The notes under the pieces were generated by a model. The model was not told the origin of the DNA. It searched no databases and saw nothing but the letters and a program-made list of their open reading frames with translations. A DNA stretch of 61,456 nucleotides, filler included, from Dugesia japonica (Eukaryota), in assembly GCA_001938525.1 (NCBI GenBank). It is 6 parts of 6 records of this genome, joined end to end, with 100 filler letters (N's around TTAATTAATTAA, not from the genome) between each part and the next. Parts side by side here need not be neighbours in the genome. Positions count along the whole stretch, not along the records: positions 1 to 14,430 come from MQRL01635290.1; 5 more parts are not named here. One strand, 5' to 3'. The position numbers were made by a program, and so were the translations under genes. The stretch's first letter is position 1. Every line of letters begins with the position of its first letter. Positions 1 to 38,486 of the stretch are shown in pieces.

Positions 1-3000
1 AAAGGAATCTTTATCAGTGATTCGAAATGTAGTATCATCTCTTTTATTCCCTCAAACAACCGGATAGAAACTCCTATTTCAATCAAGCGATTTCTATTCG
101 CACTTAGCGCAGAATTTAATTNNNNNNNNNNNNNNNNNNNNNNNNNNNNNNNNNNNNNAAAATCGAACTCAATAATTAAATCACTGATTGCTAAAAAACT
201 ACTACCAGATTTTCTCGTGAGATGCAACATAGAATTTGCGAATATTCTAGGAATCAGCAAGTCAACAGCACCTGAAAATCAAGCCGAACTTTCTCAAATA
301 TATTTCAAATCAAATATTATTTCCTCAACGACTTTCTTAGAATTTCAAGTGTTTGAAAAATTTTCCTAATAATAATAANNNNNNNNNNNNNNNNNNNNNN
401 NNNNNNNNNNNNNNNNNNNNNNNNNNNNNNNNNNNNNNNNNNNNNNNNNNNNNNNNNNNNNNNNNNNNNNNNNNNNNNNNNNNNNNNNNNNNNNNNNNNN
501 NNNNNNNNNNNNNNNNNNNNNNNNNNNNNNNNNNNNNNNNNNNNNNNNNNNNNNNNNTGTAAAACATTCTTTAAAAATTCGATTCTATATTTTATCGGTC
601 AATTTTTAAAAGTAATTGTATGATTTGGGAAATATTTGTTTCGATTCTATATTTTATTGGTCAATTTCTAAAATTAAACTGTCTGTATATAATTATATGA
701 TTTGGGAAATATTTGTTTAAAAGAAATTAGTCTTTTTGAAAATGATTTAAATTTCATAATTATTTAATTAATGGATTCTGGTGAAATTGGACTTATTTCT
801 ATTTTATCAGAGAATTTCAAAATTCTTAATTCATCTATGAATAAATTGTTTATAAATAATGGAATTTTATCTTCTCCTTCCGCTTCTTTTTCAAAGGCCA
901 GTTTTAATGAATCTGAATTATTGAAATGTAATCAAAATAATCCAATTCTTGTTCAACTGAAGATTTTTTTACATTGAATACAAGAATTTCAAAGTTGGAA
1001 AAAGATTTCAATAATCCTAAATTGAATTCAATTGGAGATTTTAATTTTATCAATTAAAGAATTTTAAAGTTAGTTAGTTAGAATTTTAACTGCAGTTAGC
1101 TTTATTTGATTCTTTAAAAAGCTCTTCGAATAATAATTTGGTAGATAATAACGCATTAAATAGTTTGGATAATATGCTTAGTAATAAAAATTTGAATTCC
1201 TCTAATAAAGAAATTATTGATACTTATAATTCTTTAAATAATCAATCTTTATTTGAGAATAATGTAAATATTATAAATATTATAAATGTTTGCCATGTAA
1301 AAATAATGTAAATAACTTCTACGATAGTAAAAAATCGAATTTGTACAGTAATAATGATGTTTCTGAAATGAAAAGCATTAATTCAGTAATGCCAATTGCT
1401 GATAATCTCATAATATTTAGTGAGAAATTCAACTTAATTCAACATGATACTCCTATTTTGAATTCTGATTTTAAATCTAACAATAAATTAATATCTAGTG
1501 ATTCGTCATTATCTAATCGTAATTTTTCAATCAAAAACAATGTAAATAATTCATTGCTGTTACCGGCTAAGAATAATTTAGACAGATCAAAAATTTAACA
1601 ATTCTAAATACGAAAATGGTCATACTGAAACAAATAAAGAAAATTCGGCAAGTGATAATGCCCCTATTGTGGTTTCCGACAATTTGCAAATCAGTTTACA
1701 AAACTAATTTGAACAAACGTGGTGTTCGAATTATAAAATCGATGCCTAAATCTTATTATAAACTTGTATTTACAGATTCATCATATGAAGTTACAAATAA
1801 ACTAAACTCCTTCTCACTGAAACTTACTGCTACGGAATGTAAAACACTATTTTCTTACTCTCCGAATATTCTGAGACTTTTAAAAGCAAAATCAAGCTCT
1901 ACAAAATCACAGAAAATAAATCTAGAATTAAGGAAAATTACACCGGAATCTTTCTTCCTAAAGAGTTATAATCTTAATAGACTCTATTTTGAAAAGAACT
2001 CTTTTTACAAAGTTATCAACAAAAATTTGCCATATAAAACAAGCAATAATAAACTTTCAGTACTAAATAAAGCAATCTTTATCACTGATTCTAAATGCGG
2101 TATTATCTCCACAGTTCGTTCAAACAACCGGATAGAAGTACATATCTCATAGTACATATCCCTTAGCACTGACTATAATTCAGTAGCTTCTATCAAAAAT
2201 ATCAAACATAAAACTGAGAGATCAAATGCAATCATTAAATCTCTGATTGCTCAGAAACTACTACCGGATTTTCTCGTGAGATGCAATATAGAATTTATGA
2301 ATGGCAATCTCTACTACACTGATATTCTAGGAATTAGCAAATTGACAGAACTTGTAAAGGAAAATGAAAGCAGATCTAATGAACTTTCTCGTACGAAATT
2401 AACATCTCTATTGTACTCATTTCCATCACTATCGGAACTCATATTTATCGATAACTCTGTTGATAAATGTTGCACAATAAATGAACACATCAAGTACCTA
2501 CAATCAGAGAAAGACTTCCCTAACAATATTTCTTATGACGGCGATAAATTCATAATTAGAGAAGACCAATCATTTATTTCCGGAACATCAACCACTGAAA
2601 ATGTAAGTGANNNNNNNNNNNNNNNNNNNNNNNNNNNNNNNNNNNNNNNNNNNNNNNNNNNNNNNNNNNNNNNNNNNNNNNNNNNNNNNNNNNNNNNNNN
2701 NNNNNNNNNNNNNNNNNNNNNNNNNNNNNNNNNNNNNNNNNNNNNNNNNNNNNNNNNNNNNNNNNNNNNNNATCATTAATTCCACTATCTCTACTAGTTT
2801 TTTCAATGAAATCACTTTGAAAATATCAAATCTTTCAATGGAAACCGATCTTGGAAAATCAATGCCTTCTCAATTAACAGTTACTGAGTCTTCTATGAGC
2901 AGTTTTATATCTAAAATTGAGTTAGTATTTTCTAATTTTAAAACTATTTTTATAAATGATTTTAAAAGTAAAATTGTAAGCTTTAATGATAATTTAAGTG

Positions 3001-4143
3001 TTTCATTGATAAATTGCTCTTTATTTATAATTCAACTCAACCATATGTTGATAATTTTTCTTCAAATAATGATTCTATAAATTTTACTAAAACCTCTAAT
3101 TGTTCTTGTAAAACTATAAATAGAGAAATTTCAATTATTTCCAATTCAAATATTGTTAGTAATTTGCCTGTTTTTAATAAATCAATAATTGAAATTTCAA
3201 AATAATTGTAATAATTCTGTTAAATATTATAATGAAAATTCTGGTTCAACAAATTTTAATTGCGATTTAAAAATCAAAGAGAAAGTTAATTCAAATAATC
3301 TTGATTCTAAATTTGAAAATAATAAAATAACTGAAANNNNNNNNNNNNNNNNNNNNNNNNNNNNNNNNNNNNNNCAGAAAATAAAGCAATAAACGTTAAT
3401 CAGAATTCTGAAAATTTTAAAAACTTTTCTGTCAATATTTAAAATTCTCAAACAAACTGTGAATTAGAATTATTACTAAAAATGAAAAAAGAAAATTATT
3501 TGAAATTTTCACAAAATTATCTTCATTAATAAAAGTTAATGAAGATTTCAAGAAATATTATTCTATTAATACCGAACTGAATGAAATTGAATCTAGTGAA
3601 AACCCTCTGAATATTGATGGTTTTATAAACTTCTTCTATAGGAACAAAAATATTTGCATTAAGATTAATTTACAAAATAAAAATGATCAGTTTAAAATGG
3701 CTTCTCAAACTGCTGTTTTATATAATAAAATTCATTTAATGGAATCAAATATATGTGATCTTACTTATGAAAATGAGGTATTTGTCCCTGTTCCTATGTC
3801 GATTAAAAAATTCTTATTCTGCTGTTGTAACGACTTCTCTTCGTCTATTTCACTTTCTAACGATGTTAACAGAGAGAACAAAATAAACAAGATTATTAAT
3901 TCCCTCAAGCTTTCTAAAAAACTTCCGGACTATTTAGTTAGATCACAATTAAAATACGAAAAAGGAAATTTTTTATTTCTGGATTCTTTTAGTATGACAG
4001 AATCGTCACTGACATTGGCGAAAAATGACAACGCAANNNNNNNNNNNNNNNNNNNNNNNNNNNNNNNNNTAAATAATATCTACAAAAAATATCCAATTAT
4101 TAAAGAAACTATGGAGAAATGTCTATTTTTAGCCTCTCAATGA
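1..4143 (+). pseudogene. Fragmented N/S-rich coding region with a repeated ~120-aa unknown domain, probably the upstream part of the non-LTR element
   Basis: Consecutive + strand ORF fragments. Recurring motif IKSLIAxKLLPDFLVRCNIEF (~175, ~2235) and INSLKLSKKLPDYLVRSQLKY (~3895). Confidence 0.5.
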
Positions 4144-4299
4144 TACCGTTGTTACTCACCGAAATGAAAGAAAAATGTGTAATGGCTAAATCAAATTTCA
4201 AAGTTAATTCCACTCAAAAATGTTCGATAACTGAAATTATGAAATTACTACTCTTGCCAATGAGAATAACAAAAGAACTTGCAATAATTGTGGTGATCA

Positions 4300-5440
4300 A
4301 AGTCTTATTGATAAAGCAGTCGAAACGCCAAAATTATTGGTTTTGAATATCGTCCTGGGAAATGTGCGCTTATCCAACTGCCGTTCGATACTGATAACAA
4401 CAAAATTTGTTTCCAATGAAAATATCAGAGCTCATAACTTCTGAATTCTTGGCGTTTAAGTAGGTGAAAATAATGACCAAAGCCCATATGAAATTATAGA
4501 AAACGTCATTACCGATGCAAAAAAACTAGCAAATTTCTATCTTTTATAACTCTATTGAAAATGGAGGAGCTGATTGTGTTGATCTCCTTGATGATTATCA
4601 CTGTCAAATAATCGTTTAATATTTTCATCTTTTTACCACAAAGTGCAATTACACCAGACAAGTCATTATAGCTTCTTTATGTCTCAAGACTAATATTTCG
4701 ATTTCGCACACGTAAAATTAAAACTTCGTGATCACGCACTTGGTGATCCAAAAGAAAATTTAAAAAATAATGGCAATAATTGTAATAAATTCAGGAGCCA
4801 ACTTAGAATTTCCAACCTCTCCGTAAAGTCAGAAACATTTTACTTTTATAACTCTATTGAAAATGGAGAAGCTGGTTGTGTTGATCTCCTTGATGATTAT
4901 CACTGCCAAATAATCATTCAATCGTTCAATATTTTCATCTTTTGCCCACAAAGTTCAATTACAACAGACAAGTCATTATAGATTCTTAATGCCTCGTTGC
5001 GAGAATTAGAATTAGATCTGCTTCGCTAATGGAAAGTCTTCAATTAATGGTAAAGAATCAATCAATAATCCTGAATCTGAAAAGACTAATTTCCAACGTC
5101 CACGAACATCAATTGATTATTTCCATAGAAATCATAACGTTAAGATCCTCTTTGACATAATGAATAAACAGCCAGTTTTGCATATCTCAACAAATATCCG
5201 AGGAACTTACATTATCACGTCTAAGTATCGTAATGAAGTCTCAAAAGTCCTTCACAATTCCATTGCCGGCGCTTATCTAGAAAAGTGGGAAAAGAGCTGT
5301 TACTCTAGTTTTCTCAATAAAAGCTAGTTCGATTATAAACAAAATAATCTTCAAAAGTCAACTTGATGAACTTGAATGGAACTTTATTCATCAAGCACGA
5401 ACAAATAGTCTGGCAATTCGCGCACGACCATTCAACTCAA
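4300..5440 (+). pseudogene. Degenerate non-LTR retrotransposon RT C-terminal region, NeSL/Utopia/R2-like
   Basis: Manual translation gives IGFEYRPGKCA (~4335, RT GLxFNPxKC-like), ILGV (YLG-like), FYNSIENGGADCVDLLDDYHCQII (~4543, duplicated ~4845) and EWNFIHQARTNSL (~5374, matches the WxFIHxARLN motif of early-branching RLE elements). Many stops and frameshifts. Confidence 0.75.
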
Positions 5441-7009
5441 AATTTGAGGATCGTTTACAAACAGAGATATAATTTTGGTGTCCATAATGCTTATAAACCC
5501 TATAAATCTATTGAAAGAATAATCCATTAGTCACAGTAATACACCAGGTAAACCAATAATTTCATTAATTTAATGAAATATTAAGATAATGCTAGCAGTA
5601 TAGAATCTAGTATTTTGACAGAGTGCTCATTAAATTCAATCTATTCATGCAAATTATTTGATTTATTATTACTATTATCGCATTAATTTAAAATATTTAT
5701 TTTTAGACTGCAAATGTCATTCAGCCGTAATCAACAAAAAGATGTGATTATATGTTTAATTTATGTTATTTTAGTATTTTGTGTAAAGATTTGTAATTTT
5801 ATAATGGAAATAGTATTAATAATGAAATTTGACTTAAGTTTATAATTTTACTTAAATTTAAGTCTTTTCTATTAATTTTGAAAGTTTTACTACTAATTTG
5901 TAGTGTTAGTTTGCAATAGTGTTCAATTTAATCAATAAAATAGGAAATGTGTTTCAATTGTCAGTAAAAATTACTTTAAAATTTTATTATACAAGTAATA
6001 ATTTTTCATTCATAAAGCACTTTGCTTTATATTGATCGCTATTAGATATAAACCTATGACCAATAGGCGATAGAATTAATAATCCTCTACTTATTATAAC
6101 GGAAACGAAGTTACAACTCACGGATAAATCAAAATCAAATTTATCAAGTGAAAAACAGAAAAAAACACTCAACGAAAAAAAATCGATGAGCTAATAGCAC
6201 ATGCAACTAATTTTGTTTCAGGCAAGATAATCAGCATGATCTTAAAAAAACATTCCTAACTTAAAACAACAATCTATGAATCACAAACCGTATCTTGGTA
6301 AAAAAAAATATGAACAAAATCGAACTGACAAATATAAACTAAGATCTGAGTTCTCAAATAAAACGCACAATCAACAAAATGCTGAATGATAACAAAATAT
6401 ATCCTAAAATCGAAGATATCATTAATCATTCCAGTAATGACTATAATAATAGTAATGACCCTTTTATTAAAATTAAGGATAATTTAAAGGTTTCTTTTTC
6501 TGATAAATGAAATTCAAGAAATGTAACTGTTATTCTAAATAAATTAAGTTTTAATAATAATAAATACAGTAATAAATATAATTCCAATCCATTCACGAGT
6601 AAACGTGTATTTTTTATTTCAATTTTACGATTTCAGTTTCTAGATGAAATGCACTGGCAGGCATAGAGTTCGAAATTACCACAAAGACGAAGTAGAAGAT
6701 ATAATCGAAAACGTGGCTTTTGATGATGATATGGTCGAACAAGTACTAGCTAGTACATTTAATACACCAAGAAAAAATGAATATTTAAATATTANGTTGA
6801 CCAAAAGGTTTTGCATCACATCATATTGTCGATTTTTTTATTGATTTTTTTATGTTTAGCATATTTTATAGGTAATTTTTTCGTTGTTGTAGATTCTCGT
6901 TAATTGCTAAAACTTTAAATGGTACTTGACAAAAAGGAACCTAGAGTCCTGATGCGATATTGTTGGAAGACACGCTACAAGGAGAGAGAACTGTGAACAA
7001 ATCAAATGT

Positions 7010-7395
7010 TTCCAGTTTATATAATAAAATTCACTTAATAGAATCAAATATATCTGATCTTAATGATGAAAATGAGGTATTTGTCCCTGTTAAATTGTCG
7101 ATTAAAAAGTTCTTATTTTGCTTTTGTAAAGATTGCTCTTCAACTATTTCACTTATTAAAAATTTTAATAGAGAATAAAATAAACAAAATTATTTATTCC
7201 CTCAAGCTTTCTTAAAAACTTCCAGACTATTTAGTTAGATCGAAACTCAAATGCTAGAAAGGAAATTTTTTAGTTCTGGATTTTTTTAGTAAGACAGAAT
7301 CGTCACCGATATTGTCGCAATATAACGCAATGATGAATAAATTTAAATTATCACGAGCCAAAGTAAATAATATTTACAAACAATAACCAATTATT
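7010..7395 (+). repeat. Diverged duplicate of 3715-4105 (unknown domain), now with stops
   Basis: Direct similarity: tttatataataaaattca...gaaaatgaggtatttgtccctgtt...ccctcaagctttc...gactatttagttagatc is present in both. Confidence 0.9.
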
Positions 7396-7870
7396 ATTAT
7401 TTATCGTTTGTTTGAGATATTCCAGACACAAGTATTATCAAAACATGTTATTATCAAATTTAAAATCATTAACACCAGTAAAATAACTACATCGTTTTTC
7501 TGCCGGCTATAGTGTAAATTACGAACCATAAAATATTTTGTTGAGTAGAATTACCAAACATTAATTTGAGATTAATGACTGATAAAATTGGAAAAGATTA
7601 GCAAGATGAAGTTCAAAAGTAATAAAATTGTTGAGAAAACATACAAGATCACATACGATAAAATATAGCATCATAATACAGTACATAACCAAACACCCAT
7701 GACACATAATATATTCATCAATCTACGAGCTATCAATATCAAGTCAAGCCAAAGAAAAAGTTCATGAATATATGATAATCAATATCTGATTCGATCAATT
7801 GTGAATATTACATTACATTTTTGAGAAATATTGACATTTTATTATTGGCATGTATATATTCCTTTTATTA

Positions 7871-8020
7871 TTATGCATAATTTTATTTTTTATTAAATTA
7901 ATAATCACCATGTATTTTATTGTTATGCATAATTTTATTTTTATTAAATTAATAATCACCATGTATTTTATTATTATCCATAATTTTATTTTTACTAAAT
8001 CAATAATTAACATGCATATA
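7871..8020. repeat. Tandem repeat, ~51-bp unit x3
   Basis: Unit ttatgcataattttatttttattaaattaataatcaccatgtattttatt seen three times, the third diverged. Confidence 0.85.
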
Positions 8021-10295
8021 TTTCTTTTATTACAAAATTGAAAACTACGAAAATTTAAAATAAACAATCAAAATTTGTTTCCAAAATAAACATTTAAATC
8101 ATTTTAATAAATAAATAAAAGAAATTTTTTTTGTAATTCTGTATATTTTTATTTAATTTAATTTTTATTTATTTTATCCTAATGGAATTTTATTTATTTT
8201 AACGATATGCATGTACATACAATTTTAGTATAAATAGAGAGTGGTTTCTCATTCAAAATTTAATCTCAAGTAGAGTCAAGGTTTACTGGAACAAACACTC
8301 GAGATAAAAATCATAACGTGTATTTGGATTTTAACTATATAATACAATTCTTATGTGTAATTTTGAATAAATAAACCTTTAGAGGTAAAGTTTCTTANNN
8401 NNNNNNNNNNNNNNNNNNNNNNNNNNNNNNNNNNNNNNNNNNNNNNNNNNNNNNNNNNNNNNNNNNNNNNNNNNNNNNNNNNNNNNNNNNNNNNNNNNNN
8501 NNNNNNNNNNNNNNNNNNNNNNNNNNNNNNNNNNNNNNNNNNNNNNNNNNNNNNNNNNNNNNNNNNNNNNNNNNNNNNNNNNNNNNNNNNNNNNNNNNNN
8601 NNNNNNNNNNAACGAAAGATGATAAAATATGGATACCAGAGAATAGGAGAGTTAAATTTTATTAAAAGAAAAACTCATTTTATTTGGTGTCATGCAGTAT
8701 GTGGAAAAATGAGATTATATATTAAAAATAATTTTGTAATTACAAATTTTTAAATTTGTAGTAAATAGTAACAGTAACCCTTTTCAAATCGAACATGGTT
8801 TCTTATTGATTGTTACTGTGTATTCCTTAAAGTAAACATGGGAAATCCTCTCGTATTTATACAGCGTAAAAGTGATGAAAAATTGAGTGCTGGTAAGTTA
8901 ATAATAAGTTTGATATTCTGTTTTATGAAATAGAACTTTGATTATTTTAGACCAGAGACATTAAATCGGCATCCATGACAGGCCACATAATTTGAAAAAT
9001 AATTAGTGTTGGGCTGGAACACATTCAGGAATGGAAGTTGTAGTCCCGAAAAGTTTGAAAATAAACGAGGAAAATATAGACAATAGAGGGCAAAGTAGAT
9101 GTGCTGGACCAGAAAAATGGATTATTATATGCGAAATTATCAGTATTATTATGTAATTATTATTAGTATAATTATTATACAATTAGTTGTTAAAATATCA
9201 AAAATCGAAAATCGGGCGTAGAGGACCCACCTTTCATCATGCAGGAATAGAATTTACATGAGCTGAAAGGGAATAAAAAATTAAATAATAAAAATAATCT
9301 ACAATAATATAATAATATATTAGAATGGCCTCTATGGCCCGTTTTATTTATTATAAATAACGCTGATTAGCGTTTAATATTATTATAGAATTAATTAATT
9401 TGGTCCAGTCCTCTTTTTGCCTTGTCTGAATCTGATGATAGCAGTAATAAATAAACAAAGCAACTGATTATTCACCAGAAGTTCAGACAAAGACTTCGCC
9501 TAGAAACAAACGGATGCATCAGATGTCACATGAGGTGACGACTGAAATTTACCAAAGTTCAAAAGTCCGAGTTCATGTGCAATTAACACTGATATGCGCA
9601 CACTGAATCCAGACCAAGGGGAACCAATCAGTAGGTCGGGAGAGCGAAAATCACAATTTCATTAGCCAACTAATTGAGGGCAAAATAATCTCTTACTACC
9701 ACAGGGAATAAAAAGAGATGAGAAGAAAGAAAAACACTTCTTGAGAATAAANTTTTAAAATTCTAAAAAAACCTAAATTTTGATAAGTAAATAAATCAAT
9801 TGGAAAAGGAAACGCCAACTCAACCAAAGTAAAAATTATATTTATTGTTTTCTCTTGTGTTTAATTATAACATTCGAGTGCCATTCTCAGAAGTTGTCTC
9901 CACCTGAATGACCGGGCTCTTAACGGGAAAAAATGTATGAACAAGATTTAGGTTGGGAAATAACGTTTAATTCAATTTGTGCGAGATAAGAGAAAACGAT
10001 ATGAAGATAATGAGACTAGTTGACATGAGATATGCGAATGTGAAGTTATATGTGAATACGAGAGGTATATGAGCCGAAAGGAAGTCAATATGTTGAAAGT
10101 GAAAAGGAAGGAATGATGAGGATAGTTGATTTTGGTAAAATTAATCGGAAATTATGTTAATGTTCGAAAGAGGAACAGTGGGAGAGCTCGGTCAGTCATG
10201 TGGAGGGGATCAGTAAATTTGAATTTCAATATATCTGAATTNNTATGCAGTTGGGTAATCATGACTCTGCAGGTTTTCTGAATTTTGTTTTATTC

Positions 10296-10562
10296 TTTTC
10301 GTTATAGTTAATTTTTTTTTATGAAACTTTATTAATATCCATGTTAAGTATTATTTGTTTTGAATTATAAATAAATCAATTTAATTTGCAGTGGATTATA
10401 TATTTTAATCAATTTAATATTTAAACTATATTTTTTCGTTATAGTTAATTTTTCAAGTATGAAATTTTATTAATATCCATGTCAAGTATTAGTTGTTTTG
10501 AATTATAAATAAATCAATTTAATTTGCAGTGGATTATATATTTTAATCAATTTAATATTTAA
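10296..10562. repeat. Tandem ~135-bp duplication inside the element
   Basis: ttttcgttatagttaatttt...gcagtggattatatattttaatcaatttaatatttaa occurs twice. Confidence 0.9.
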
Positions 10563-10866
10563 TTTTTTGAAANTTTTGTAACTAAATATTATCACTGATA
10601 AGTGAGTCAATATCATTATGAAACGAGATATGTTACACTATTCCTATAGGGAGAAAAGTCAAGGTAAATATTAGGGAAGTCTTAATAGAGCTTGACAATG
10701 ACGTGGACGAGAGAAGATGCTTGCAAATAGTGATCACCTTCTCTGGTTCGCATTATGAAGCGATGGAGAAATAATGATAGGCCATAGGCTGAAGAATCGT
10801 CAATTAACTTTTATAATAATGCATTAATTTATGAGTATGAATGAAATTAATTGCTATTGATTATAG

Positions 10867-11289
10867 ACGCAGGAATCGAAACAAGAGGAGAACAGTGGTG
10901 AACATAACGAGGATTCGGGTGCATACATAGACGAGGTCGGGTACTTTTATGTAGAATGGTCAGAGATTCAACGGATGCTGAAGCATGAAAGGGAAGAGTG
11001 GCGGATAGAAGTCGCAAATGTGCAGGCAGATCTAGAAACTGCCCAGTTACAACTGGTGATCAAAGGCACAAACTACTTGTTGAACAATTTCCAAAGGAAA
11101 TGCGACCATGAGATGGCTGGGAAGGAGACCTCGGTGATGCCTGATTCTTCTNCAGAATGTCCCTTGAAAATCACCGATGTGCGGNCATTGGCGGNATCGG
11201 CAGAGAACGAGGTGGAGGAGGAAGAAGCACGCATAATTCGACAGTTATTGGAACTAAGAGAAATCGATCCAATACGATTGGACGTATAA
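10867..11289 (+). CDS. Putative terminal exon, small acidic coiled-coil protein of unknown function
   Basis: The frame is open from the acceptor-like ttatag| (10866): TQESKQEENSGEH...MLKHEREEWRIEVANVQADLETAQLQL...DV*. GC-richer than flanks. Confidence 0.5.
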   Translation, partial: TQESKQEENSGEHNEDSGAYIDEVGYFYVEWSEIQRMLKHEREEWRIEVANVQADLETAQLQLVIKGTNYLLNNFQRKCDHEMAGKETSVMPDSSXECPLKITDVRXLAXSAENEVEEEEARIIRQLLELREIDPIRLDV

Positions 11290-11506
11290 AATATATGTAT
11301 ATCGGAAAGAGAGAAATTGTTTTGTTATTGAATGTAGAAAATGTGATATGTATGTCAGTAGTTTATAAGATTTGATTTATGATTATCGTAAAGATCCGCA
11401 GGGGCGGCGTGTATTAAGTATTTATTACTTAAGATGTTAAGATTCTAACAGTTCTCTTGTTTAAAATATAAATCATTTTAATTGTGGCCAATTTGAATCA
11501 CTTCAG

Positions 11507-11832
11507 TGTCAAAAACCATCGACGAATTGGGAAAAAGCAGGGAGTTAGTTGGAGAAAAGAAAAGATGGGCCGAGGAACGGCGTGAAATGCGAAACGAGAT
11601 ATTACGACTGAAGGGACAAGTCATAAAGGTCACCGAAAAGTTTAATCAGATAAGAGAAAGGAATTGTCTCTTCAGCACGCCAATCACCTCAATCATGGCT
11701 GAAGTGATAAAAACCTATGCCGATCGGGAGAGTTCGATGTTCCCATTCTTACGAACCTTATGGCTGAATTATCGAGAATCTCCGCCATCAACCAAAGCCA
11801 TGAACTCGACCGTGGATTTAAACGCTGATTGA
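11507..11832 (+). CDS. Putative terminal exon, ~108-aa coiled-coil protein of unknown function
   Basis: ttcag|TG acceptor, open frame and downstream AATAAA (~11850). A protein-level conserved homolog lies at 18340-18680 (NEILRLKG, VIKTYADRE, LRT, LNYR). Confidence 0.6.
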
Positions 11833-12547
11833 GAGCAATTTAATGGGGTAAATAAATGTGTTTAATTGTGAATGGAACGTATTCTTATTTCGTCTGTTCA
11901 CCCAATGTTAGTTGGTAACGAAGGAAACTTTTTTTTATAAGATATTTTTATACTGTGCAGAAAGAGATTTTTTACTTTTGGGTTCATTGATTCAGTAAAT
12001 AAGACGCGATACAGCAAAGTCGCGCTGAACCTGGGGAAAGAGAGGGGCACGTCAAAGAGGTGACGTAAACGCTTGTGATTTTTAGGTTGCCCCTAGATTA
12101 TGTGACTTGTTAAAAGTGAGAGTGGTATCAGTCGGAGATGATTTAAATTACAAAATAAAAATCCTAAAAATCCAACATTAGTAAATTTTGTTAGAAATTG
12201 GAATAGGTACAAATAAAATAAAAGGGAGTCAATCGTTAAACAAGGAACAAAATTAATGAATCTTCCCTAACTCTGACAATGTAAATAACAAACGATTAAT
12301 TTATTGGGTATTTTGTGATAAATTAAGATTTGCCAAAAGCAATCGTCCTAAAAAAATATAAGCAGAAAGGAAATTGTTCTGCAGATTTAGTCTATCATCT
12401 GTCATCTTACAGATCNCTTGGATATAAAAATCCAAAAATGATTCAACAACAGGTTTGAAAGTAAATACAAACCATGTTCACATACCATCAAAAAGTCAGT
12501 TGACAAATACTAACAACTTATCCAATATTACTAATACGGCAAACAAG

Positions 12548-18299: not shown

Positions 18300-19015
18300 A
18301 ATGAAATTAATTGTGATTGAATGATATTTCAAATTTTAGTGAACAAATCCAATGATGAAAAGATGATGAAAAAAGATGTTTTCGCCGCGTGGCAACGGTG
18401 GAAGGAGGAACGAAAAGAGTTAAAAAATGAAATTCTGAGGCTGAAGGGATAGGTAAAGAAGTCCGCAGTAAAACACAATCAGATACACTTAAATCAGAAA
18501 TACAATCAGAAATACACTTAAAAAGAGCTGTCCCTTTAGCACGCGAACGGATGTTATAAAGACGTACGCAGACCGAGAAGGATTCATGTTTGTACCTTTA
18601 AGGACACCATAGTTAAATTACCGTGCGGCGGTAGATGAAACGGTTGGAGAAACTACTACTATGAATTTAGATGCAGATTAGACGAATCTACAAGACCTAT
18701 CAATAGGAAAATAAAGGTTAATAGGCGTCATTAGCGTGTTCTGAATTAATGAATTTTTTTTAAAATTGTAGTGTAAATTTTTACTTAGCATAATAAGAGT
18801 TATTGCTGTCAGGATTCAGAAAATCTAGTGAGTAAGACGCTATATCACAAAGTCGCGCTGAAACCGTGGGTGAGAGGGGCATGTCACAGAGGTGACACAA
18901 ATGCTTGTGATTTTTAGGTATGCCCCTAGATATGTCGTTGGAAATAATAATTATTAAAAGCGAGAATAGAGAAGTTAAAGAAAATTTAAAACATCAAAAT
19001 CCTAAAATCCCAACA
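18300..19015 (+). mobile_element. Second, diverged copy of the right part of the 9007-12177 element
   Basis: ttttag|TG acceptor at 18339, a homologous ORF with premature stops, the shared ~100-bp block at 18834-18935 and terminus cctaaaatcccaaca. Left boundary not identified. Confidence 0.8.
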
Positions 19016-21720
19016 TGAAGAACTGGAAGATGCTGATGATGAAGCAGAAGAATATTTTATTTTAAATGAAGAAGTATATCTTTATGAGAAAAGTATGTTT
19101 TATGTTATTGTTTCTTTTCTATTAATGGTTGTTTTTAAACATTCCTAAAGACATATTACAAGCTTATTACAAGATTTTCCAATTTTGAGGACCATGAGAA
19201 TTATAATAATTGATCCAAAATAAATACTTTACTGGATATCAATTATGAGAAAATAATCGAAGAATATTTGCATGAATCAAGATGCTGTTCATTAATAACA
19301 GATGATTACTATAGAAAGTGTCTGAAAAGGAAATGTGAAGAAGCTTTATCGGAAAATGAAAATGAATTTTTATGTAAATCAGATTGTGATTGTATCAATC
19401 GGTCCTCTTCAGGAACACAAATCTTGGTTGATTAACAAAAAAATGTTTGGTTTTTATTATTTGTTTGTAAAAAATGTTGTTTCTTTTTTTTATAAAAATT
19501 AAATGTTTTATTAAAAAGTTTTAATTTATTTAAAACAAATTGCAAAAATAATAAACATTTACTTATAAAACAAAAAAAATACTAAAATAAATAAAATAAT
19601 CTAATAATTCAGCAAGTTAATTCGTTTAATTTATAGTTTCTCTTTAACGACTCTATTATTTTTTGCTTGCCATAATATAGTAATTCTGCCTGTTTATTCA
19701 TTTCAGTAAAAGCCTCTCTTTAATAATTCAGCATCCTCTTTCGATTATATACACTTAATTTATTTTAGTAATGAATGATCATATATATTGTAATATTTTA
19801 ATATTAATTTTTAAATAATCGAAAGATTTACTTCCAGATTTACTTAAGAGATAAGTTTAATCTTTCTGATAAGAGCTGATAATATCAAAATTATGTGATG
19901 AATTCTCTCAAAATCTGCGATGCTTTTATAGTATTTTGTATCGTCAGTTTTTGACAGTTTAACATGTGAATACCACTTCAATTTTTAGTTTTTTTTAAAA
20001 TTTTGCATAGATCGGTGCTCACTCGTTGTTCATATAACTTCATTATCATTATGTATTACATCTTTACTTTGTATTATGCACGGTGATCAACAATTTACAC
20101 AGAGACTATATACTTTGCGGTTCTTATCTGAAATATGGAGATTTCAATGTTGTATACGAAGTGCGGTGCTCACTTATCAATGCGTTTTCTTGTGCTGGTG
20201 CCAAACCAAATTTGTGGTCACGAGTTGATAAAAAAAAGTAATAATATTTTTCTTTAAAAATAATAAAATCAGAAAGTTAGTTTTCTAGAACACCAATATA
20301 TAAATAAGGATAAATACAAGATCTTTGTAAATAATTAAATATCAATATAAAATTTGAATATAAAAGTAACTCTTCTTTCCTTACATATGAATTTCTTGTT
20401 CTAATTCTTTTTCTTTCATTATAAATAATAATACATTTAATAATATTTAACTTTAATAATAATAATTTTCTTTTAATTGAGTTTTTGTGAAATTGAAATA
20501 TAAATAGGAAATTAAACAAGATGCTGTACAAATAATTTAACATTTTTACCAATTATAAAACTAAATTCCCTATTCTTTAATTAAATTCAATTGTGTTTTC
20601 CTAATTCCATTTTTATCTTTATAATTAATAATATTTATTTCAATATTAATAATTTTTGTTGTTGAACTATTTGTTTTAATCTATATACTTATTGTCAGGA
20701 TAAGTAAATGAATATTTCAAGTTTCAATTTTAGAAATTAATTTGAAATTAATTTTAATAAGAAAAAAAGAAGATCGAAAATCAAATAGAAACAGATGTTG
20801 GGTATTCTAACTCAACAAAAGATTTTATGGTTCGTATTTGATGCTAGTAAAAATAAATAATTGATTTGCGATTTTACGGGTGTTGATTTTATCCCTGTGT
20901 ATATGTTCATACTGTATTATATAATCAATATCTGATGATGTAAATAAAGTGATATAGTGTAACTTACCTTATGTAAATAAATGAATAAACACTTTAAAAA
21001 ATACCCTTTATTTTTGGAGTATACACAATATGTTTAACTTATCAATATCTTATCAGATCGATTTTAATTTGACAAAGTACTGCTTCCGGTAGAGGTCAGA
21101 GTCTTTGCAAATGAGAAAAGTCTGATTTACACTANNNNNNNNNNNNNNNNNNNNNNNNNNNNNNNNNNNNNNNNNNNNNNNNNNCACCATAATTTTTAAA
21201 ATAAACTCATATTATTAATAAAATTTCTTTACAAAGTAAAACAACTCAATAAATTTTTTGTGAAAATAACGTTCACTAATAATAAATTCAATTATTTAAA
21301 TTTTCCAACTACAAATAACATCAATAATTTTCAACATACAATTAATATTTTTTACAAAATAAATATAAAATAATCAAATCAAATAATTAAAATAAATAAT
21401 GTCATAAAAGGATTGAAATCAAATCATAAAAAATATTGAAGTCAAATAATTAAATAAACAATGTCAATATGAATGTTGGATTGATATCTTAGGAATCTGC
21501 TCGAGGTTAGATGATTGACTTGAACTGATTACTATTTGAATGATTTACTTGTATTTGTGAGGATTACTGTAATGTTATATTTGCGTGTTCTGCATGCTGT
21601 GTACAACTGTACCTCAACACAGATAATTATTAATAGGTAGAATTTCTATATTTTTTAAATAAATATTTTAAATCATGAGGGACACTTTACTAAATGAGCA
21701 CGTATGCTCTGTTTCTAATA

Positions 21721-22480
21721 TGGTGGCAGCGGTTAATACTGAAAGTATTACGGACCGTCTTATGCCGGATATCTAAGAAGAAGAAATATTTATATGCAAG
21801 TGCGAAATTTATTTCGGAGTCAAAGGAATACACAATAAAAAAGATCTGGTGCGTTTAGTAATATGTATGATAGAAGAGGAACTAGTTGAGAAGTATGTTG
21901 AAATATTTAAAAAGACAGAAGGATTCCAGGATTGACTTTGCATAGCATTTGGAAAGGAAAGAATCATTAAACTGGATTTCTGAGAACTGTTAGATTTCAA
22001 ACATAATCATGAAGATGTGGAAACGTATATTGCCAAAGTAGAATAACTGGTAAATAACTTATTTTTAAATAAAAGTTTTACACAGGAAGATGTTGATTCT
22101 CTGTGCAGGCGATAGACGTGCAGAAGAAGAAGTCCTCCTGAGGAAAATAAATGAAGTTAATGGCATTAAAGAAACTTTGCAATCGTTAGATAAGCTGGAG
22201 AATAAAGGAGAGCAAATTAAAGTAGTTCGAAGCAGTCTAAAAGAAACTGTAAGATTTAAGCAGGCAGCTCGAAATGTGGACAGAAAACAAAAAATAGTTG
22301 GGTGACGTCTTATGATATATTTAGATGTTAGGAGTGTAATAAAGAAGGCCAAAGTTGCAGAGAATGTTCGATGAGAAGGCAAGTGAGATGCTGGACGTGT
22401 GAAGAAGAAGGACATATTAGTCGAGACGGCAGAAAACAAATTCGATGTTGATTAAAGAGACACATATGAGTACTGTGAGT
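21721..22480 (+). mobile_element. Gypsy-like internal fragment: tRNA-Leu PBS and degenerate gag with zinc knuckle
   Basis: TGGTGGCAGCGGT at 21721 is complementary to the eukaryotic tRNA-Leu 3' end. VRCWTCEEEGHISRD(G) at ~22385 is a degenerate CX2CX4HX4C. Confidence 0.75.
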
Positions 22481-22938
22481 AGTTAAGAAGCGAGATGAAG
22501 TTTTTGTGCTTTCATTGGAAACTTTTTTTTGAAATATTTTTTTAAAAAAATAAAAAATCACAAATTAATTAAAAAGTTAAAAAAAATTATTTTCCATAGA
22601 AGTTTGATCTAAAATTTTGCAACTAAAGTTATTTTTAAAAAATCTTAAAGGCTTTTGAATTAAAATTTTGCAATTAAAATTATGTTTTAAAAATATTAAA
22701 AAAAGTGTTTGAATGAGAATTTAAATTTTGCATATAAAATTATTTTTTTAAAAATCTTCAAATTATTTTTGAATGAATCTGAAATTTTATATCTATTAGA
22801 AAATAGTTTTCAATCAGAGCATGAGGTTTTAATTTGTTTGATTAAACAAATAATGATGTCATAGTTTTTATTTTGTAATAAAATTTATGGAGTTGAATTT
22901 TGATGTTGATAATACAAGTTCTCAAAATTTATCTAACA

Positions 22939-24011
22939 TGTTGGCAGCGGTAAACACTGATGCGATCACATAAAGATTGTGGTAAAAAAGACCGAGTCAC
23001 AGAGCGGAAGAATATTATTTGAACATTAATAAACCTAGACTAGAAGAGAGAAGATACAATTTTAAAAGCGGACAACAAACAAAAGATTGAAGTCGGACAA
23101 AACCAATTCATGCCATTCGAGAAGAGGATGTTGAAGAGAATGAAGAGATATTTTTTGGAAGCATAATAAAAGATGAAAATTCAAGAAGCGAATACCCAAA
23201 AGGCAAGGCTCCATCAGTAGAGAAGTTTGTTAGAGCCATTCATTAAACGAGATACTGTTTGAATATCCTCAAGAGGCCGAGAAACGAGATGAGATGAGTA
23301 AAAAGAGAGAAAAGGTTTACAGATTCCTAAAAAGAGAAAGTTTCAATGATGCAGAAGTTAACAAAGCAAGAGTGATAGGAATAATTGAAAAGAAACAGAA
23401 TGCAGAAATTTCGTATGACAAAATGCAAAGGAAACCTAGCATTTCAGTGATTATCAATCGTGAACAGTTTGATTGTTTGTTAGATATAGGAGCAAGAATA
23501 AATGTGGTGAGCATGAAAGGATTTAATAGACTCTTAGAAACAATGTTATAAAAAAGCGAGGAACGATTGCATTGCGCGAATAACAGCTCATTGAAGACGA
23601 TTGGAAAGATACGTGTCGGAGTTGTAGTTTCAGAGGTGTGCAAGTAAGTAATATTTCTAAAATTAAAGAAATTAATACCAGATCAAATTGATGGAGTGGA
23701 ATTCCAGAATACCTTTGGGTACCATCTGCAAAAAATGTGCAGGGTAGACATCAATAATCACCGAGGAAAAATTTGGAAGACAAATACAGACGGATGAACG
23801 ATTGAGATATGCTATGGAGATTCTAGAAAATAACAAAGATCATAGATTGACTGTGATTATTCAGAATAATAAGGATGTATTTATGGCGGATAAATAGGAC
23901 ATTAGATGTACACACTTCACAAAGCGTCGAACAATCTCTAAAGGAGGTCCAATCAACATAAAACCGTATCGCCAACCAATGAATCTAGAGGAAAAGATTG
24001 AAGAGGCCATC
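22939..24011 (+). mobile_element. Gypsy-like internal fragment: PBS, aspartic protease remnant, start of RT
   Basis: ctaaca|TGTTGGCAGCGGT, then CLLDIGARINVVS (LDTGA-like) and KPYRQPMNLEEKIEEAI at the segment end. Confidence 0.8.
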
Positions 24012-24139: not shown

Positions 24140-24185
<46 letters not shown>

Positions 24186-28909: not shown

Positions 28910-29950
28910 TACTGTGTTCAAAAAGTAAGGTGATTTTCTAAATAAAATTCGAACTATTTATTTAATCATTCAAATTTATTTTGCCTCTTTCAAAGTAATC
29001 CATTCCCGTTGCAAGACACCCTTGCCAACGTTGAATTCAATTTTTGAAACACTTATATTCAATTTTTAGAATTTTCATAAGCCTATCCTTTGATTTTTAT
29101 TTAATTGGATTCATGACTCAAATCGAGTTNNNNNNNNNNNNNNNNTAATTCGACTAAACAGGAAATAAATCGCATGGTTACAAATAAATTGACTGCTTAA
29201 AACTCATAGGTAATGATTGCATTATGAACAATTGGGCTATCATGGTGCAAAGTCCATTAATTATTTAAATAAATCTGTTCTCTTTTGACGAATGATTTCG
29301 TACAAACAACACATAACTAGTAGGTAATAATCTTTATTAACGGTTTTACATAATTCCAAAATATCTTTATGCACCACACCTCGATAATCTATAAAAACAG
29401 TGAGCAAAACTTTTGCCTCAGAATGAGTTTGACGAACTTCTTCCGGTCTTGGTTTATTTGAAGCACGCCATTCAAATCCATGTTGTTTTATTAACACATG
29501 AAACTTGCAAAATCTAAGTCTAGTTTCCAGTAATAATACGTTCGATGAATGTTGCATAATATTCATTCATTCAAGCATATCTTCGAAAAATCAACACATG
29601 CTACTTTTGAAAGATCTCAATGATTTTTAAATGAGTTTTTCTGCCAAACATTTCAAGCCTAAAACATTTAAAATCAGTTAAAATTACTTCTACTGACCAT
29701 TAAATTTGCCAAAATCTTCAGCAACCAATCTCATAGTCAGTTAAATCAGTAATAACTGACATCGTGAAACTTGAAAATATATTTATTATTTATACTTTAA
29801 TATACAAACAAAACGTCAAGGTCACGTTTATTTCCAACTTCTCCGTCTCTTCCAGATTTTTAACACCTTTTCAGCCTTTTAATACGTCTGTGTTTTGAAA
29901 CTTCTGAATTCTGGACAATCTTTTACATTTAACATACATCGTTAAATAAA
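28910..29950 (-). mobile_element. Degenerate mariner transposon
   Basis: ORF 29261-29566: EWRASNKPRP..KVLLTVFIDYRGVVH..TVNKDYY..IRQKR. TIR-like actgtgttcaaaaagtaaggtga at 28911. Confidence 0.85.
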
Positions 29951-32900
29951 TTATGCTGTTCTATAATTATGAAAAATATCCAAATTAATACAATTGGATT
30001 AATCAATATCCTTGATGATCGATTTTGTGGTGTATTTAAGAAAACTAATTGTAGAAAATTTATCAAGAACAAAATTGTTTTTTAATTTTTTGTAAACAGA
30101 AAACTTTTGGGTAAAAAATGCAATAAATTTAACAAAATTTAAGTTAAAAAAACAAAGAAATATGATAAAATAACAGAAACTTTTTTAAACATTTTAAAAC
30201 AAAAATCAATTTCATATAAAAAAATATTTATCATGTGAATATCGAATTAAAAAAATTTCAATTGAAATTTTAAAAAAAATCAAACAAAAATAATTATAAA
30301 AGTGATAACAGATGAACTAAACAATGATGTTAACATAAAGTAGTTATATAGAAGAGCAAGTAATCATGAACTCTGATTAGCATTAGAAGAAAAAAATTAT
30401 CTGACAGTTTGCCTGCAATGAAAAGCAGAGAAAATATTCATTAGGCTAGAAAATGCGATATATTTGGTAGAAATGGATGCGAACAGATGATGTTAGTCAA
30501 TAACAACAGCAGAAAATCAGCCGACCTGACAAATTTATCACTAAAGTAGATTTTGCATGAATTTGTNNNNNNNNNNNNNNNNNNNNNNNNNNNNNNNNNN
30601 NNNNNNNNNNNNNNNNNNNNNNNNNNNNNNNNNNNNNNNNAAATTAAATAACGTAAAAAATTTGTACAAAGCCATGTAAAAATATTTCTTAAATTACTTA
30701 TAAATTTGATTTATTGTTTAAAAAAGATTTCAAAATTAAAGAAAAAAATTATAAATTTGAGTTAAGAAATATTTTGTTTAATGAAACTAGACTAATTTCA
30801 TCAAGGATCAAGTCAGATATTCCATAGATTGTTGTTCAGCTTTGAAATGAATTAAAATCTGTATAGTAATTAATTTACAATTAATTGGATTTATTTTTCT
30901 AATAAAAATATTTAATATGTAAAAAAAATTGAAAATATCGAGGTTAAACTCATTTAAATTACAAATTTAAAGATGAAAAATCTAATTCCAATTGGTATTA
31001 AGCATGAATTAAGAAAATCCAATCAGAATTTGGTGATTATGTGTAAATTTTCTCTTATCCAAATGTTATGTTTGTGTGTTATTTGTATATATTCTATCAA
31101 ATCGATTCCGGTTTGCAATAAATTAAAATCTTCTCAATCATATTTGACAATTTATTTGTAATGGTTAAAATTAAAAGCACATTTTATGAACACATATATT
31201 CTTTGTATAAATCATAGTACTGAAATAATTTTATAATCCGTTTTACTGATGCTACTGTACCCAGAAAAGATTTAAAAACTAAATTTTAATTTTCAGTGAT
31301 AAAATTAATGACATTCGATATGATTATAATTGGAATTATTAAATAGCGTAACAACTTTGTAATTAAGCAGGAAATTCATTTAAATCTTTTGAAATTTTAC
31401 TTTTATTACGGGTAAAGTATACAGAAATTGTCTTTTAGGTGTTGTTAAAACACATAAAGTGATAGATGTTAGATGAGTTAGAAATACTCATCGGATCATT
31501 AATGTCAAAACTCGATTCCATAGCAACATTTATTCACAAACAAAACTATAAATATAACTTTGCTTTATTCAAACAAATTCAAAAAATCATATTCAAAAAC
31601 GGAAAATATCAAATATCAGTATTTTGTAAAATATTTTAAAATTTAATTAATATCAAATTTAAAAATACATTTTATATATTTTTACTTATTTTACTTTATT
31701 CAAAATTTTATTAATATCAGTAGATAGATAGTTGCGCACGGGATCAACCCCTCCCCCTCCCATCCGCCGACGAAGTGATCTAGTAATTTGAGTTATTCAG
31801 GAATGTAGGATTTTGATTGATCGTTACGAATACGGGAAAAAATTTGGAATTCGGGTTGGAACGGTCGAATTTTGGCTCGGTAAGGTCGAAAATTCGAATT
31901 TTGTTCGAAATTTTTTGGTCTATTTTCATCGTACAAGTTCAAATTTGGTACTGTTGGGGAAAGACAGCTCTCAGAGGGCCTCTCGAAGAGCGTAAAGTGG
32001 TTGACTCCCAGCGCCTACTTGGAGTGCACACTTATACGCTTTTGGTTCGGGTTCGATATTTCCCCATTTATTTACNNNNNNNNNNNNNNNNNNNNNNNNN
32101 NNNNNNNNNNNNNNNNNNNNNNNNNAAAAAAAAAGATTTATTTTATACAGACAAATACTATTGACATATAATCCAAAGTCTCATTATCAAGCCACTGGAT
32201 TGGCTAATTCATCTTCTTTCTTCACGATTACATCCAGCTTTTTTATGAGAGCGTAATTCTGTTAAGGTCAGGTGTTTTACCCCAACATACATATGGTTTG
32301 CTATATAAATATTTTTAGTTTCCAAGATAAAGGTAGTAGCGCACTGGATCAGTTGACCTTGATCTATGAATTTCTCAGTTAAAACTTATTGTATCGCTTC
32401 ACAAATAGTATGATTCGATTTAGAATAAAATTTTCAACAAATTTCATATATAGTTTGTTATATACTTGTGCTTGGTTCGAAAGATAGTTCGACATTGCCA
32501 GGTACCATGTCCGACCTTCGATAAGAGAAATTAATAACTCTGAAAATACTTATGATAATCCATCAAATTTAATATCGTTGAACTCAAAATAAAGAACTGA
32601 ACATTCACAATTATCTCAAGTAAATCTTCTCTATCAAATGATGGAAATGACTGTAACATTCTCATTCTCACCATAGCTGGATATTTTATCAATGCTGTAA
32701 AAACGGAAGACTTCTTTCTAAATCCATTATTATTTTAATAAATACACAATGAGTTGTTTATCACTTTATTTACTTTTCAGTTAAAAGCTTCTTTCCATAT
32801 ATTTTCGATATCATTTTGAATTAAAACTGTAACAATCTATGTGTAAATTGAAGCAAACTATGAGTAAATTGTAACCACTTATACGTAAATTACTATTACC

Positions 32901-37937: not shown

Positions 37938-38486
37938 AGAACAATAAGGATTATTTATAAAAATAATTTGTAACAATAATCACTTTTTTTAACTGGAATG
38001 CATACTTTCATATTAAAAACTGACATAATAATTTTACTGCTGTCAAATATTTGAAATGTATGTTCAATACCTTTAAATTTCTAAATGTATTTTTTCAAGA
38101 AAACATTTTCCCAATAAAAATAATCTTTTCTGTTGATTAATTAAAATGAATTACCGTGATCATTGCAAAAATATTGAGAAAACTTTTGAAAAATTTGAAC
38201 CTTGAATCCAAAATGTATATATACAACTTTACAAATGGTAAAATATACAACTAATAATATTTCCGGTATATGATTGTTTAAAAATAGCAATTTAAATATT
38301 TAAATTCTTATAAATTTTAATTTAAAGATTTTAAAATTTCTTTAGATAATAGTAAATTTATTACATATTTAAATCTAAGATTTTGATTATAAAAAGTCAT
38401 TTATTAGAAGTCACTTTATTAAATTTTATTTTAGATATATTTCATATAATCTTCATGTCTATATAATAATATTTTTAAAGAAAAAT

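What the first reader, a model, noticed from the sequence alone, without database searches (positions are those of the whole stretch)
9007..12177. TSD-flanked TG...CA element with no transposition enzyme, carrying an array of small spliced-ORF cassettes
Seen: TGTTGG/CCAACA termini, a TTAG 4-bp direct repeat, and three GC-richer open frames (10650-10773, 10867-11289, 11507-11832). Each frame follows an AT-rich spacer ending in an AG acceptor and each ends in its own stop. A homolog of the last cassette plus terminus lies on another segment (18340-19015) with protein-level conservation. Known: TG..CA ends with a 4-bp TSD are typical of gypsy LTRs and Ginger-type integrases, and planarian giant gypsy elements (Burro) have multi-kb LTRs. 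Inference: a giant solo LTR or non-autonomous element encoding its own accessory genes, expressed as alternative terminal exons in a virus-like transcription unit.
Basis: partly seen in the sequence, partly recalled or inferred. Interest (0 to 1): 0.8.

Follow-up and report, generated by a model that had tools for sequence, protein, structure and literature searches.

The report
Retrotransposon end carrying small conserved genes
A 3.2-kb repeat with shared ends and a duplicated insertion site carries three small open reading frames, one of them conserved as protein across very distant copies; it is likely a lone terminal repeat (LTR) of a giant retrotransposon whose accessory genes would be chosen by alternative splicing.

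Summary
The anatomy is real. TGTTGG (9007)...CCAACA (12177) sits between two TTAG, and summed DNA depth jumps from about 10-20 to over 1,000 at both ends, so many copies share these ends. Three stop-bounded frames follow AG sites. Cassette 3 is under strong purifying selection against the second copy (87 codon pairs; mismatches 34/29/57 by codon position; synonymous sites saturated) and has five intact relatives, 25-58% identical. Cassettes 2 and 3 are predicted long helices with no known family. Ginger is excluded (6-bp inverted ends). Best reading: a decaying solo LTR of a large Gypsy-type family whose U3 holds accessory genes, likely spliced from a leader in full-length elements, as MMTV sag lies in U3. 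Not shown: pairing around gag-pol (no genome held), splicing (RNA barely covers the acceptors; no read is 99% like this copy), the host (planarian is inferred). The three frames do not share one phase, so one common coding 5' exon cannot serve them all. A second family in the window (52.5-54.1 kb) shows the same layout.

The parts
9003..9006 (.). left target-site duplication TTAG
   Evidence: X1 contig spans this junction, 8901-9083, 11 differences and 2 gaps in 181 nt
9007..9012 (+). 5' terminus TGTTGG
   Evidence: DNA depth step
9007..9510 (+). very high-copy 5' non-coding module with a long hairpin (about 9212-9342); nearly all RNA reads lie here
   Evidence: X1 summed depth 5,800-67,000 in bins 9037-9510; fold z -3.8, 0 of 200 shuffles
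10291..10562 (+). tandem duplication of a 138-bp unit in the AT-rich spacer before cassette 1
   Evidence: 94% identity, 97% over 105 nt
10650..10774 (+). cassette 1: candidate acceptor at 10649, 40 open codons starting two bases later, own stop; weakest of the three
   Evidence: frame scores best under two outside codon models; relatives show indels near 10667-10670; no homolog search run
10867..11289 (+). cassette 2: candidate acceptor at 10866, 140 open codons in phase 0, predicted 70-residue helix plus acidic tail; lacks the start codon that relatives have
   Evidence: pLDDT 67.5, single sequence; codon periodicity p 1e-4; 18 contigs, all of the depth at that place; no homolog
11507..11832 (+). 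cassette 3: candidate acceptor AG|TG at 11506, 107 codons, two predicted helices (coiled-coil-like); conserved C-terminal motif K.YADRE...RT...DL
   Evidence: about 11 residues near 11657-11689 are read in a shifted frame relative to relatives
12000..12103 (+). very high-copy 3' non-coding module, candidate promoter/R region
   Evidence: 86% identical to copy 2 while synonymous sites of cassette 3 are saturated; X1 depth 39,000-102,000
12172..12177 (+). 3' terminus CCAACA
   Evidence: shared with copy 2; depth step
12178..12181 (.). right target-site duplication TTAG; no primer-binding site follows
18340..19015 (+). copy 2: distant subfamily, 3' part only (acceptor, broken cassette 3, 3' module, terminus); no counterpart of the 5' half in its segment

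Best explanation
This is a high-copy TG...CA element with a 4-bp target duplication and protein-conserved internal frames, likely a solo LTR left by recombination of a large Gypsy-type retrotransposon, whose U3 region would carry an array of accessory genes. Shown: shared ends, no enzyme, purifying selection on cassette 3, a non-coding 3' module conserved far beyond neutral sites. Inferred: the 3' module is the promoter/R region; in a full-length element RNA starts in the 5' LTR, and a short leader is spliced over gag-pol to alternative acceptors in the 3' LTR, each giving one small helical protein that ends at its own stop. A leader ending in A would create the start codon on AG|TG acceptors (cassette 3, copy 2) and leave cassette 2 to use its own start, so one leader serves both phases. 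In a solo LTR the cassettes lie upstream of the promoter, so this copy would be silent and decaying. The proteins are likely self-associating coiled coils acting for the element (RNA export, particle assembly or host interference); that step is a guess.
For: Ends and TSD with depth steps. Only 6-bp inverted ends and no terminal direct repeat, as in one LTR. Selection: pS 0.97, pN 0.32, third-position excess P 6e-6, 0 of 2000 bootstraps with ratio of 1 or more. Five intact relatives of 83-115 aa end within a residue of the same place and begin at or near the acceptor position; the exhaustive 50%-cluster search found no longer fused form (3 hits, 1 spurious). Ends are 30-100 times deeper than the interior and loose ends before 12000 are mixed (agreement about 0.5), as expected for many subfamilies sharing LTR ends. 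This copy decays: no start codon on cassette 2, shifted stretch in cassette 3, 0 RNA reads at 99% identity in three runs. Precedents: MMTV sag lies wholly in U3 of the 3' LTR (PMC3621094); Drosophila Gypsy env is spliced to a leader peptide or to part of the start codon (bioRxiv 10.1101/2023.08.03.551782); multi-kb LTRs and accessory ORFs in Ogre and Burro (PMC6431247).
Against: No copy was seen next to a PBS, PPT or gag-pol: no genome is held and scans of viral, metagenome and prokaryote collections found nothing. No spliced read was seen. On both modules first mates lie mostly on + (X22: 25 vs 7 and 58 vs 18; X23: 22 vs 13), which in most stranded libraries means RNA from the minus strand, against a plus-strand promoter. 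No place where many molecules begin was found. Cassette 1 begins AG|GG here, which a split start would not open. Selection was measured for cassette 3 only, on one pair, leaving out the indel-bearing middle (11653-11706); the mirrored antisense frame gives the same signal (0.17). Under the codon model trained on the second element cassette 3's frame was not best.
Confidence: 0.5

Rival explanations
1. A stand-alone non-autonomous unit moved in trans by an integrase; its own promoter in the 5' module drives a first exon (candidate donors at 9786, 10134, 10212) spliced to the three acceptors.
For: The 5' module is conserved, has a strong hairpin and a TATA-like site at 9352, and draws RNA reads; the exon before 10212 ends in A, which would fit a split start. 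Only the single-unit form was seen.
Against: 6-bp inverted ends and a TTAG target fail Ginger; no second LTR, PBS or PPT as a TRIM/LARD would need; RNA depth between 9590 and 10695 is at most 1.
Confidence: 0.2
2. It is a solo LTR, but of the opposite polarity: gag-pol RNA runs on the minus strand and the cassettes are antisense genes with their own transcript.
For: About 3:1 excess of first mates on + in X22 on both modules, 1.7:1 in X23; the 5' module is the longer conserved, structured block. Antisense ORFs in plant Gypsy elements and HTLV-1 are recalled, not looked up.
Against: Library strandedness is not on record, and the reads are 80-95% alike and mostly run on into unlike sequence, so they may be repeat fragments inside host transcripts.
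Confidence: 0.15
3. The frames are real genes but are not cis-spliced: they are cistrons freed by spliced-leader trans-splicing or read from their own starts on separate short RNAs.
For: Gene-spacer-gene layout with own stops; relatives have a Met codon directly behind the second AG; MDG1 elements express small ORFs without splicing (PMC11952523).
Against: Cassette 3 and copy 2 have no start at the AG and open two bases later; a flatworm leader ending in AUG (recalled) would put them out of frame. No leader-like loose end was listed, but coverage there is nil and the tables are cut.
Confidence: 0.1
4. The frames are captured host exons or remnants of a polyprotein, carried passively.
For: Both window copies are damaged; AG boundaries and GC steps look like host exons.
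Against: Synonymous saturation with conserved protein between two element subfamilies means selection acted while the frame was in the element; no Pfam, PDB or fold match and no longer homolog.
Confidence: 0.05

Closest known systems
Solo LTRs of Ty3/Gypsy retrotransposons, incl. planarian Burro/GYPSM1 and plant Ogre
   Same: TG...CA ends, short TSD, multi-kb length, high copy number; Ogre LTRs are 1.9-6.5 kb and Burro has accessory ORFs (PMC6431247, section read).
   Different: In that text the extra ORFs lie in the internal region or polyprotein; here several acceptor-led ORFs lie between the two termini of one putative LTR. No sequence link to Burro could be tested.
U3-encoded retroviral accessory genes (MMTV sag; HIV nef and foamy bel2 recalled)
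   Same: Protein-coding frame inside the LTR, expressed by splicing from the upstream LTR (sag in U3: PMC3621094 passages).
   Different: Three frames in a row rather than one; invertebrate host; no sequence or fold similarity found.
Spliced third ORFs of Gypsy elements: Drosophila env, Cer1 CERV, rotifer ORF3s
   Same: Accessory ORF reached through an acceptor, sometimes with a split start codon; CERV is a spliced accessory protein needed for RNA export; rotifer ORF3s include coiled coils.
   Different: [quoted passage not shown]
MDG1/412 sORF1 and sORF2
   Same: Two small helical accessory ORFs in a Gypsy-group element (PMC11952523 passages).
   Different: They lie between LTR and gag and are not spliced.
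Ginger1/Ginger2 DNA transposons
   Same: TGT...ACA ends, 4-bp TSD.
   Different: They have 40-270 bp inverted repeats and CCGG/CCGT or RTATAY targets (PMC2836005); here 6 bp and TTAG.

Membership tests
Gypsy-type solo LTR | TG...CA termini with a short inverted repeat | tested here: met
   TGTTGG/CCAACA, 6 bp
Gypsy-type solo LTR | 4-6 bp target-site duplication directly flanking one unit | tested here: met
   TTAG both sides; 1 of 12 pairs
Gypsy-type solo LTR | ends shared by many copies | tested here: met
   depth steps at both ends in run X1; copy 2 shares the 3' end
Gypsy-type solo LTR | same unit occurs as paired direct repeats around gag-pol, with PBS and PPT | not testable with these tools
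   no genome; collection scans empty; loose-end tables cut before the termini
Gypsy-type solo LTR | U3-R-U5 order with promoter and poly(A) site | tested here: inconclusive
   conserved 3' module and AATAAA at 12154; no RNA start or end pile-up; strand excess points the other way if libraries are stranded
Burro (planarian giant Gypsy) | more than 30 kb element with gag-BIR-BCL2-env-pol polyprotein in a dugesiid host | not testable with these tools
   no internal region available; host not identified; the primary paper is not held
Ginger1/Ginger2 | terminal inverted repeats of 40-270 bp | tested here: not met
   6 bp
Ginger1/Ginger2 | CCGG/CCGT or RTATAY target | tested here: not met
   target TTAG
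TRIM/LARD non-autonomous LTR elements | two LTRs in direct repeat around an internal region (definition recalled) | tested here: not met
   only an internal 138-bp duplication
Spliced accessory-gene array | frames under purifying selection | tested here: met
   cassette 3 only; not testable for cassettes 1 and 2, which have no second sequence here
Spliced accessory-gene array | RNA joints onto the acceptors | tested here: inconclusive
   depth 0-2 at 10649 and 10866 in X21-X23, 0 at 11506 in X22

The most novel reading that the evidence does not exclude
Giant LTR retrotransposons of this animal lineage keep a multi-gene accessory array inside the LTR itself and decode it by alternative 3' splicing from one leader with a split start codon: an invertebrate retrotransposon counterpart of the 3' accessory region of complex retroviruses, present in at least two unrelated families in this genome, with a new small coiled-coil protein family that has distant relatives in other assemblies.
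Probability: 0.35. Interest if true: 0.75.

Novelty: new variant of a known kind. Interest (0 to 1): 0.56.

Why it matters
LTRs of invertebrate retrotransposons are annotated as non-coding. If multi-kb LTRs hide spliced accessory genes under strong selection, then abundant solo LTRs scatter ready-made acceptors and small coding exons through the genome, repeat libraries mask a protein family, and there is a testable set of element proteins for the conflict with piRNA silencing. The cassette 3 family has no Pfam, PDB or named relative. The score is held down because LTR status, splicing and host are inferred, LTR-borne ORFs have a retroviral precedent, and the DNA family may already sit in a repeat library that could not be checked.

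Tried and rejected
No genome held. No RNA holder listed by the run search (best share 0.29). Runs X13 and X10 (RNA only guessed) cover spacers like DNA, and the 11380-11502 joint is also in DNA run X1, so they were not used as expression or intron evidence. P0002 (3,956 aa, E 4e-13) is a spurious repeat match. Pfam, PDB sequence, BFVD and PDB fold searches: nothing significant; Atlas rows for P0001 are generic helical proteins; the Atlas did not answer for cassette 2. Rfam: one chance-level hit; no tRNA; the 3' module does not fold better than shuffles (z -1.0 to -1.4). Kinship of cassette 3 with the 52915 frame or with cassette 2: E 0.34 among 1,194 frames, shuffle tests and hhalign not significant, rejected as unshown. 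A fourth decayed cassette at 9880-10210: purine-rich but 6-11 stops per frame and no codon signal, not supported. The 22 listed single-base differences in the cassettes (4 synonymous, 18 not) were not used for selection: many are places where nearly all relatives differ from this one decaying copy, and the tables show only 40 rows each. Four look-ups of earlier scan findings returned nothing.
Full report
Setting. The window is about 25% GC and consists of six segments joined by an N44-TTAATTAATTAA-N44 spacer. It holds an ABCA-type transporter frame, two mariner fragments and a broken gag-protease region, so it is an AT-rich eukaryote genome, most likely animal. No whole genome is held. The run search names the holders only as organism A (19 of the 20 holding rows) and B, in 9 studies, best share 0.29. 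A planarian host is my inference from base composition, repeat content and the literature on S. mediterranea (over 70% AT, giant Gypsy elements; PMC11410931 passages); it was not verified.

TTAG|TGTTGG...CCAACA|TTAG spans 9003-12181. The TSD by itself is modest evidence (1 of 12 possible pairs, chance 0.0088 each). DNA contigs of run X1 settle it: summed depth is 7 and 19 in the left flank, 1,734 in the bin holding 9007 and 8,068 in the next; 1,225 in the last bin of the element, 72 and 18 after it. Summed depth is no copy number, but the interior (about 200-9,000) and two modules, 9037-9510 (5,800-67,000) and 11975-12097 (39,000-102,000), are clearly multi-copy. One X1 contig spans the left junction with 11 differences and 2 gaps in 181 nt, so the insertion is shared with a diverged haplotype. 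The ends are inverted over 6 bp only and there is no terminal direct repeat.

The cassettes. Three stop-bounded frames of 40, 140 and 107 codons follow AG sites at 10649, 10866 and 11506; GC is 0.40-0.47 inside and 0.17-0.28 in the spacers. Both long frames together arise in 18 of 2000 block shuffles. Each proposed frame scores best of three under a codon model trained on the ABCA frame; under a model trained on the second element cassettes 1 and 2 do, cassette 3 does not. Cassettes 1 and 3 open two bases after the AG, cassette 2 directly after it. All of the X1 depth covering the first codon of cassette 2 (18 contigs) has a Met codon there; this copy lacks it.

Selection. Cassette 3 was compared with copy 2 in two gap-free blocks, one anchored on the acceptor and one on the stop; 87 of 90 codon pairs were used (3 with stops dropped) and the indel-bearing middle was left out. 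Mismatches by codon position are 34, 29 and 57; pS 0.97, pN 0.32; Fisher P 6e-6. Four other frames give 1.5-2.3; the mirrored antisense frame gives 0.17. Protein searches found P0001 (57% identity) and, with a profile, P0003-P0006 (5 hits of 314 candidates). All are 83-115 aa, keep K.YADRE, RT and DL, and end at about the same place; four have a V or M near where the acceptor lies, which may reflect GTG read as a start, an inference since their DNA could not be fetched. The exhaustive search of 1.84 billion representatives gave 3 hits, one spurious, none a longer fusion. Cassette 2 has no homolog of 77-245 aa (0 of 17 candidates). Models are long helices (cassette 3 pLDDT 82, pTM 0.40; cassette 2 pLDDT 68, pTM 0.34) with no significant family or fold match. 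The non-coding 12000-12103 module is 86% identical between the copies, against 63-65% in the aligned spacers, so it is constrained or exchanged between subfamilies.

RNA. On 8800-11151, 5, 108 and 98 reads were laid from X21, X22 and X23 (6, 25 and 26% of each run read); on 11196-12415, 151 from X22. None is 99% alike, so none comes from this copy. Almost all lie on the two modules and run on into unlike sequence. Relatives of cassette 3 are covered at low depth (16 reads at 11604), starting near 11524. Depth at the acceptors is 0-2. None of the 15 joints shown of 22, or the 9, is an RNA joint onto an acceptor. The splice test is therefore inconclusive. First mates fall mostly on +, which would mean minus-strand RNA if the libraries are stranded in the usual way.

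Mechanism. One TG...CA unit with a TSD, 6-bp inverted ends, conserved ends and a faster-changing interior is what a solo LTR looks like. Selection on an internal frame across subfamilies requires that it was expressed in active elements. The simplest route is the retroviral one: the frames lie in U3, and in a full-length element a leader from the 5' LTR is spliced to acceptors in the 3' LTR. A leader ending in A would create the start on AG|TG acceptors (cassette 3, copy 2, and 53447 in the second element) while cassette 2 uses its own start. Split starts are known for Gypsy env, where the leader gives AU. In a solo LTR the array would lie upstream of the promoter and decay, as seen. All of this paragraph after its first two sentences is inference. 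Overall confidence 0.5; solo LTR in either polarity about 0.7.

Comparison and novelty. Ginger fails on two defining features. Burro could not be tested; Grohme et al. 2018 is not held and Repbase is not available, so the DNA family may already be catalogued, and supplements of planarian genome papers, which I did not read, may bear on this. Ten literature searches showed no paper describing acceptor-led ORF arrays inside invertebrate LTRs; 'ORF in the LTR' with gypsy and retrotransposon gave 0 papers; the library lacks most subscription papers. Papers seen: PMC6431247, section 7 whole; matched passages only of PMC2836005, PMC3621094, PMC5408684, PMC10309623, PMC11952523, PMC8532177, PMC11410931, PMC13309565, PMC13238120 and bioRxiv 10.1101/2023.08.03.551782. 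HIV nef, foamy bel2, HTLV-1 HBZ, plant antisense ORFs, TRIM/LARD definitions and the flatworm leader ending in AUG are recalled.

Verdict. A real element with a real, unnamed, selected small-protein family; likely an LTR with an accessory-gene array; splicing and pairing around gag-pol untested. New variant of a known kind, interest 0.56.

Noticed in passing
window 52519-54069 (+): A second element with no DNA match to the first shows the same layout: GC-rich frames of 118 and 101 codons (52915-53271, 53438-53743) behind AT-rich spacers and AG sites (52893 or 52914; AG|TG at 53447), a hairpin-rich tail (z -2.0) and a likely end TTCAACA at 54069. Its 5' part is cut by the segment start. Kinship of its first frame with cassette 3 is not significant.
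   Followed up: partly
window 21720-24011 (+): Broken Gypsy-like gag-protease region with two PBS-like sites TGGCAGCGGT near 21724 and 22942 (tRNA-Leu assignment recalled); weak RVP protease match, E 0.02. The sequence before them does not match the element.
   Followed up: partly
window 31952-32287; ends also at 24141 and 33981: A short TGTTGGGG...CCCCAACA element family without an exact 4-bp duplication at 31952-32287.
   Followed up: no
window 38379-43753 (+): ABCA-type transporter read as one uninterrupted frame of about 1,790 codons across N gaps, cut at the segment end.
   Followed up: no
window 58491-60375 (-): Fragments with motifs that I recall from protein-primed DNA polymerase B of Polinton-like elements; no Pfam match. 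Related palindromic repeats at 35553-35651, 44729-44884, 46090-46320 and 59638-59799.
   Followed up: no
window 29264-29566 (-) and 47534-47893 (-): Mariner transposase fragments (PF01359, PF17906).
   Followed up: yes
window 10841-10854 and about 18301-18314: The stretch AATGAAATTAATTG lies before the cassette 2 acceptor of the element and before the cassette 3 acceptor of copy 2; TTAAT occurs 20-43 nt before those two AG sites and before 11506, a candidate branch motif.
   Followed up: partly
window 9880-10215 (+): Purine-rich, 38% GC stretch behind an AG|TG at 9878 that looks like a fourth decayed cassette, but has stops in all frames and no codon signal.
   Followed up: yes
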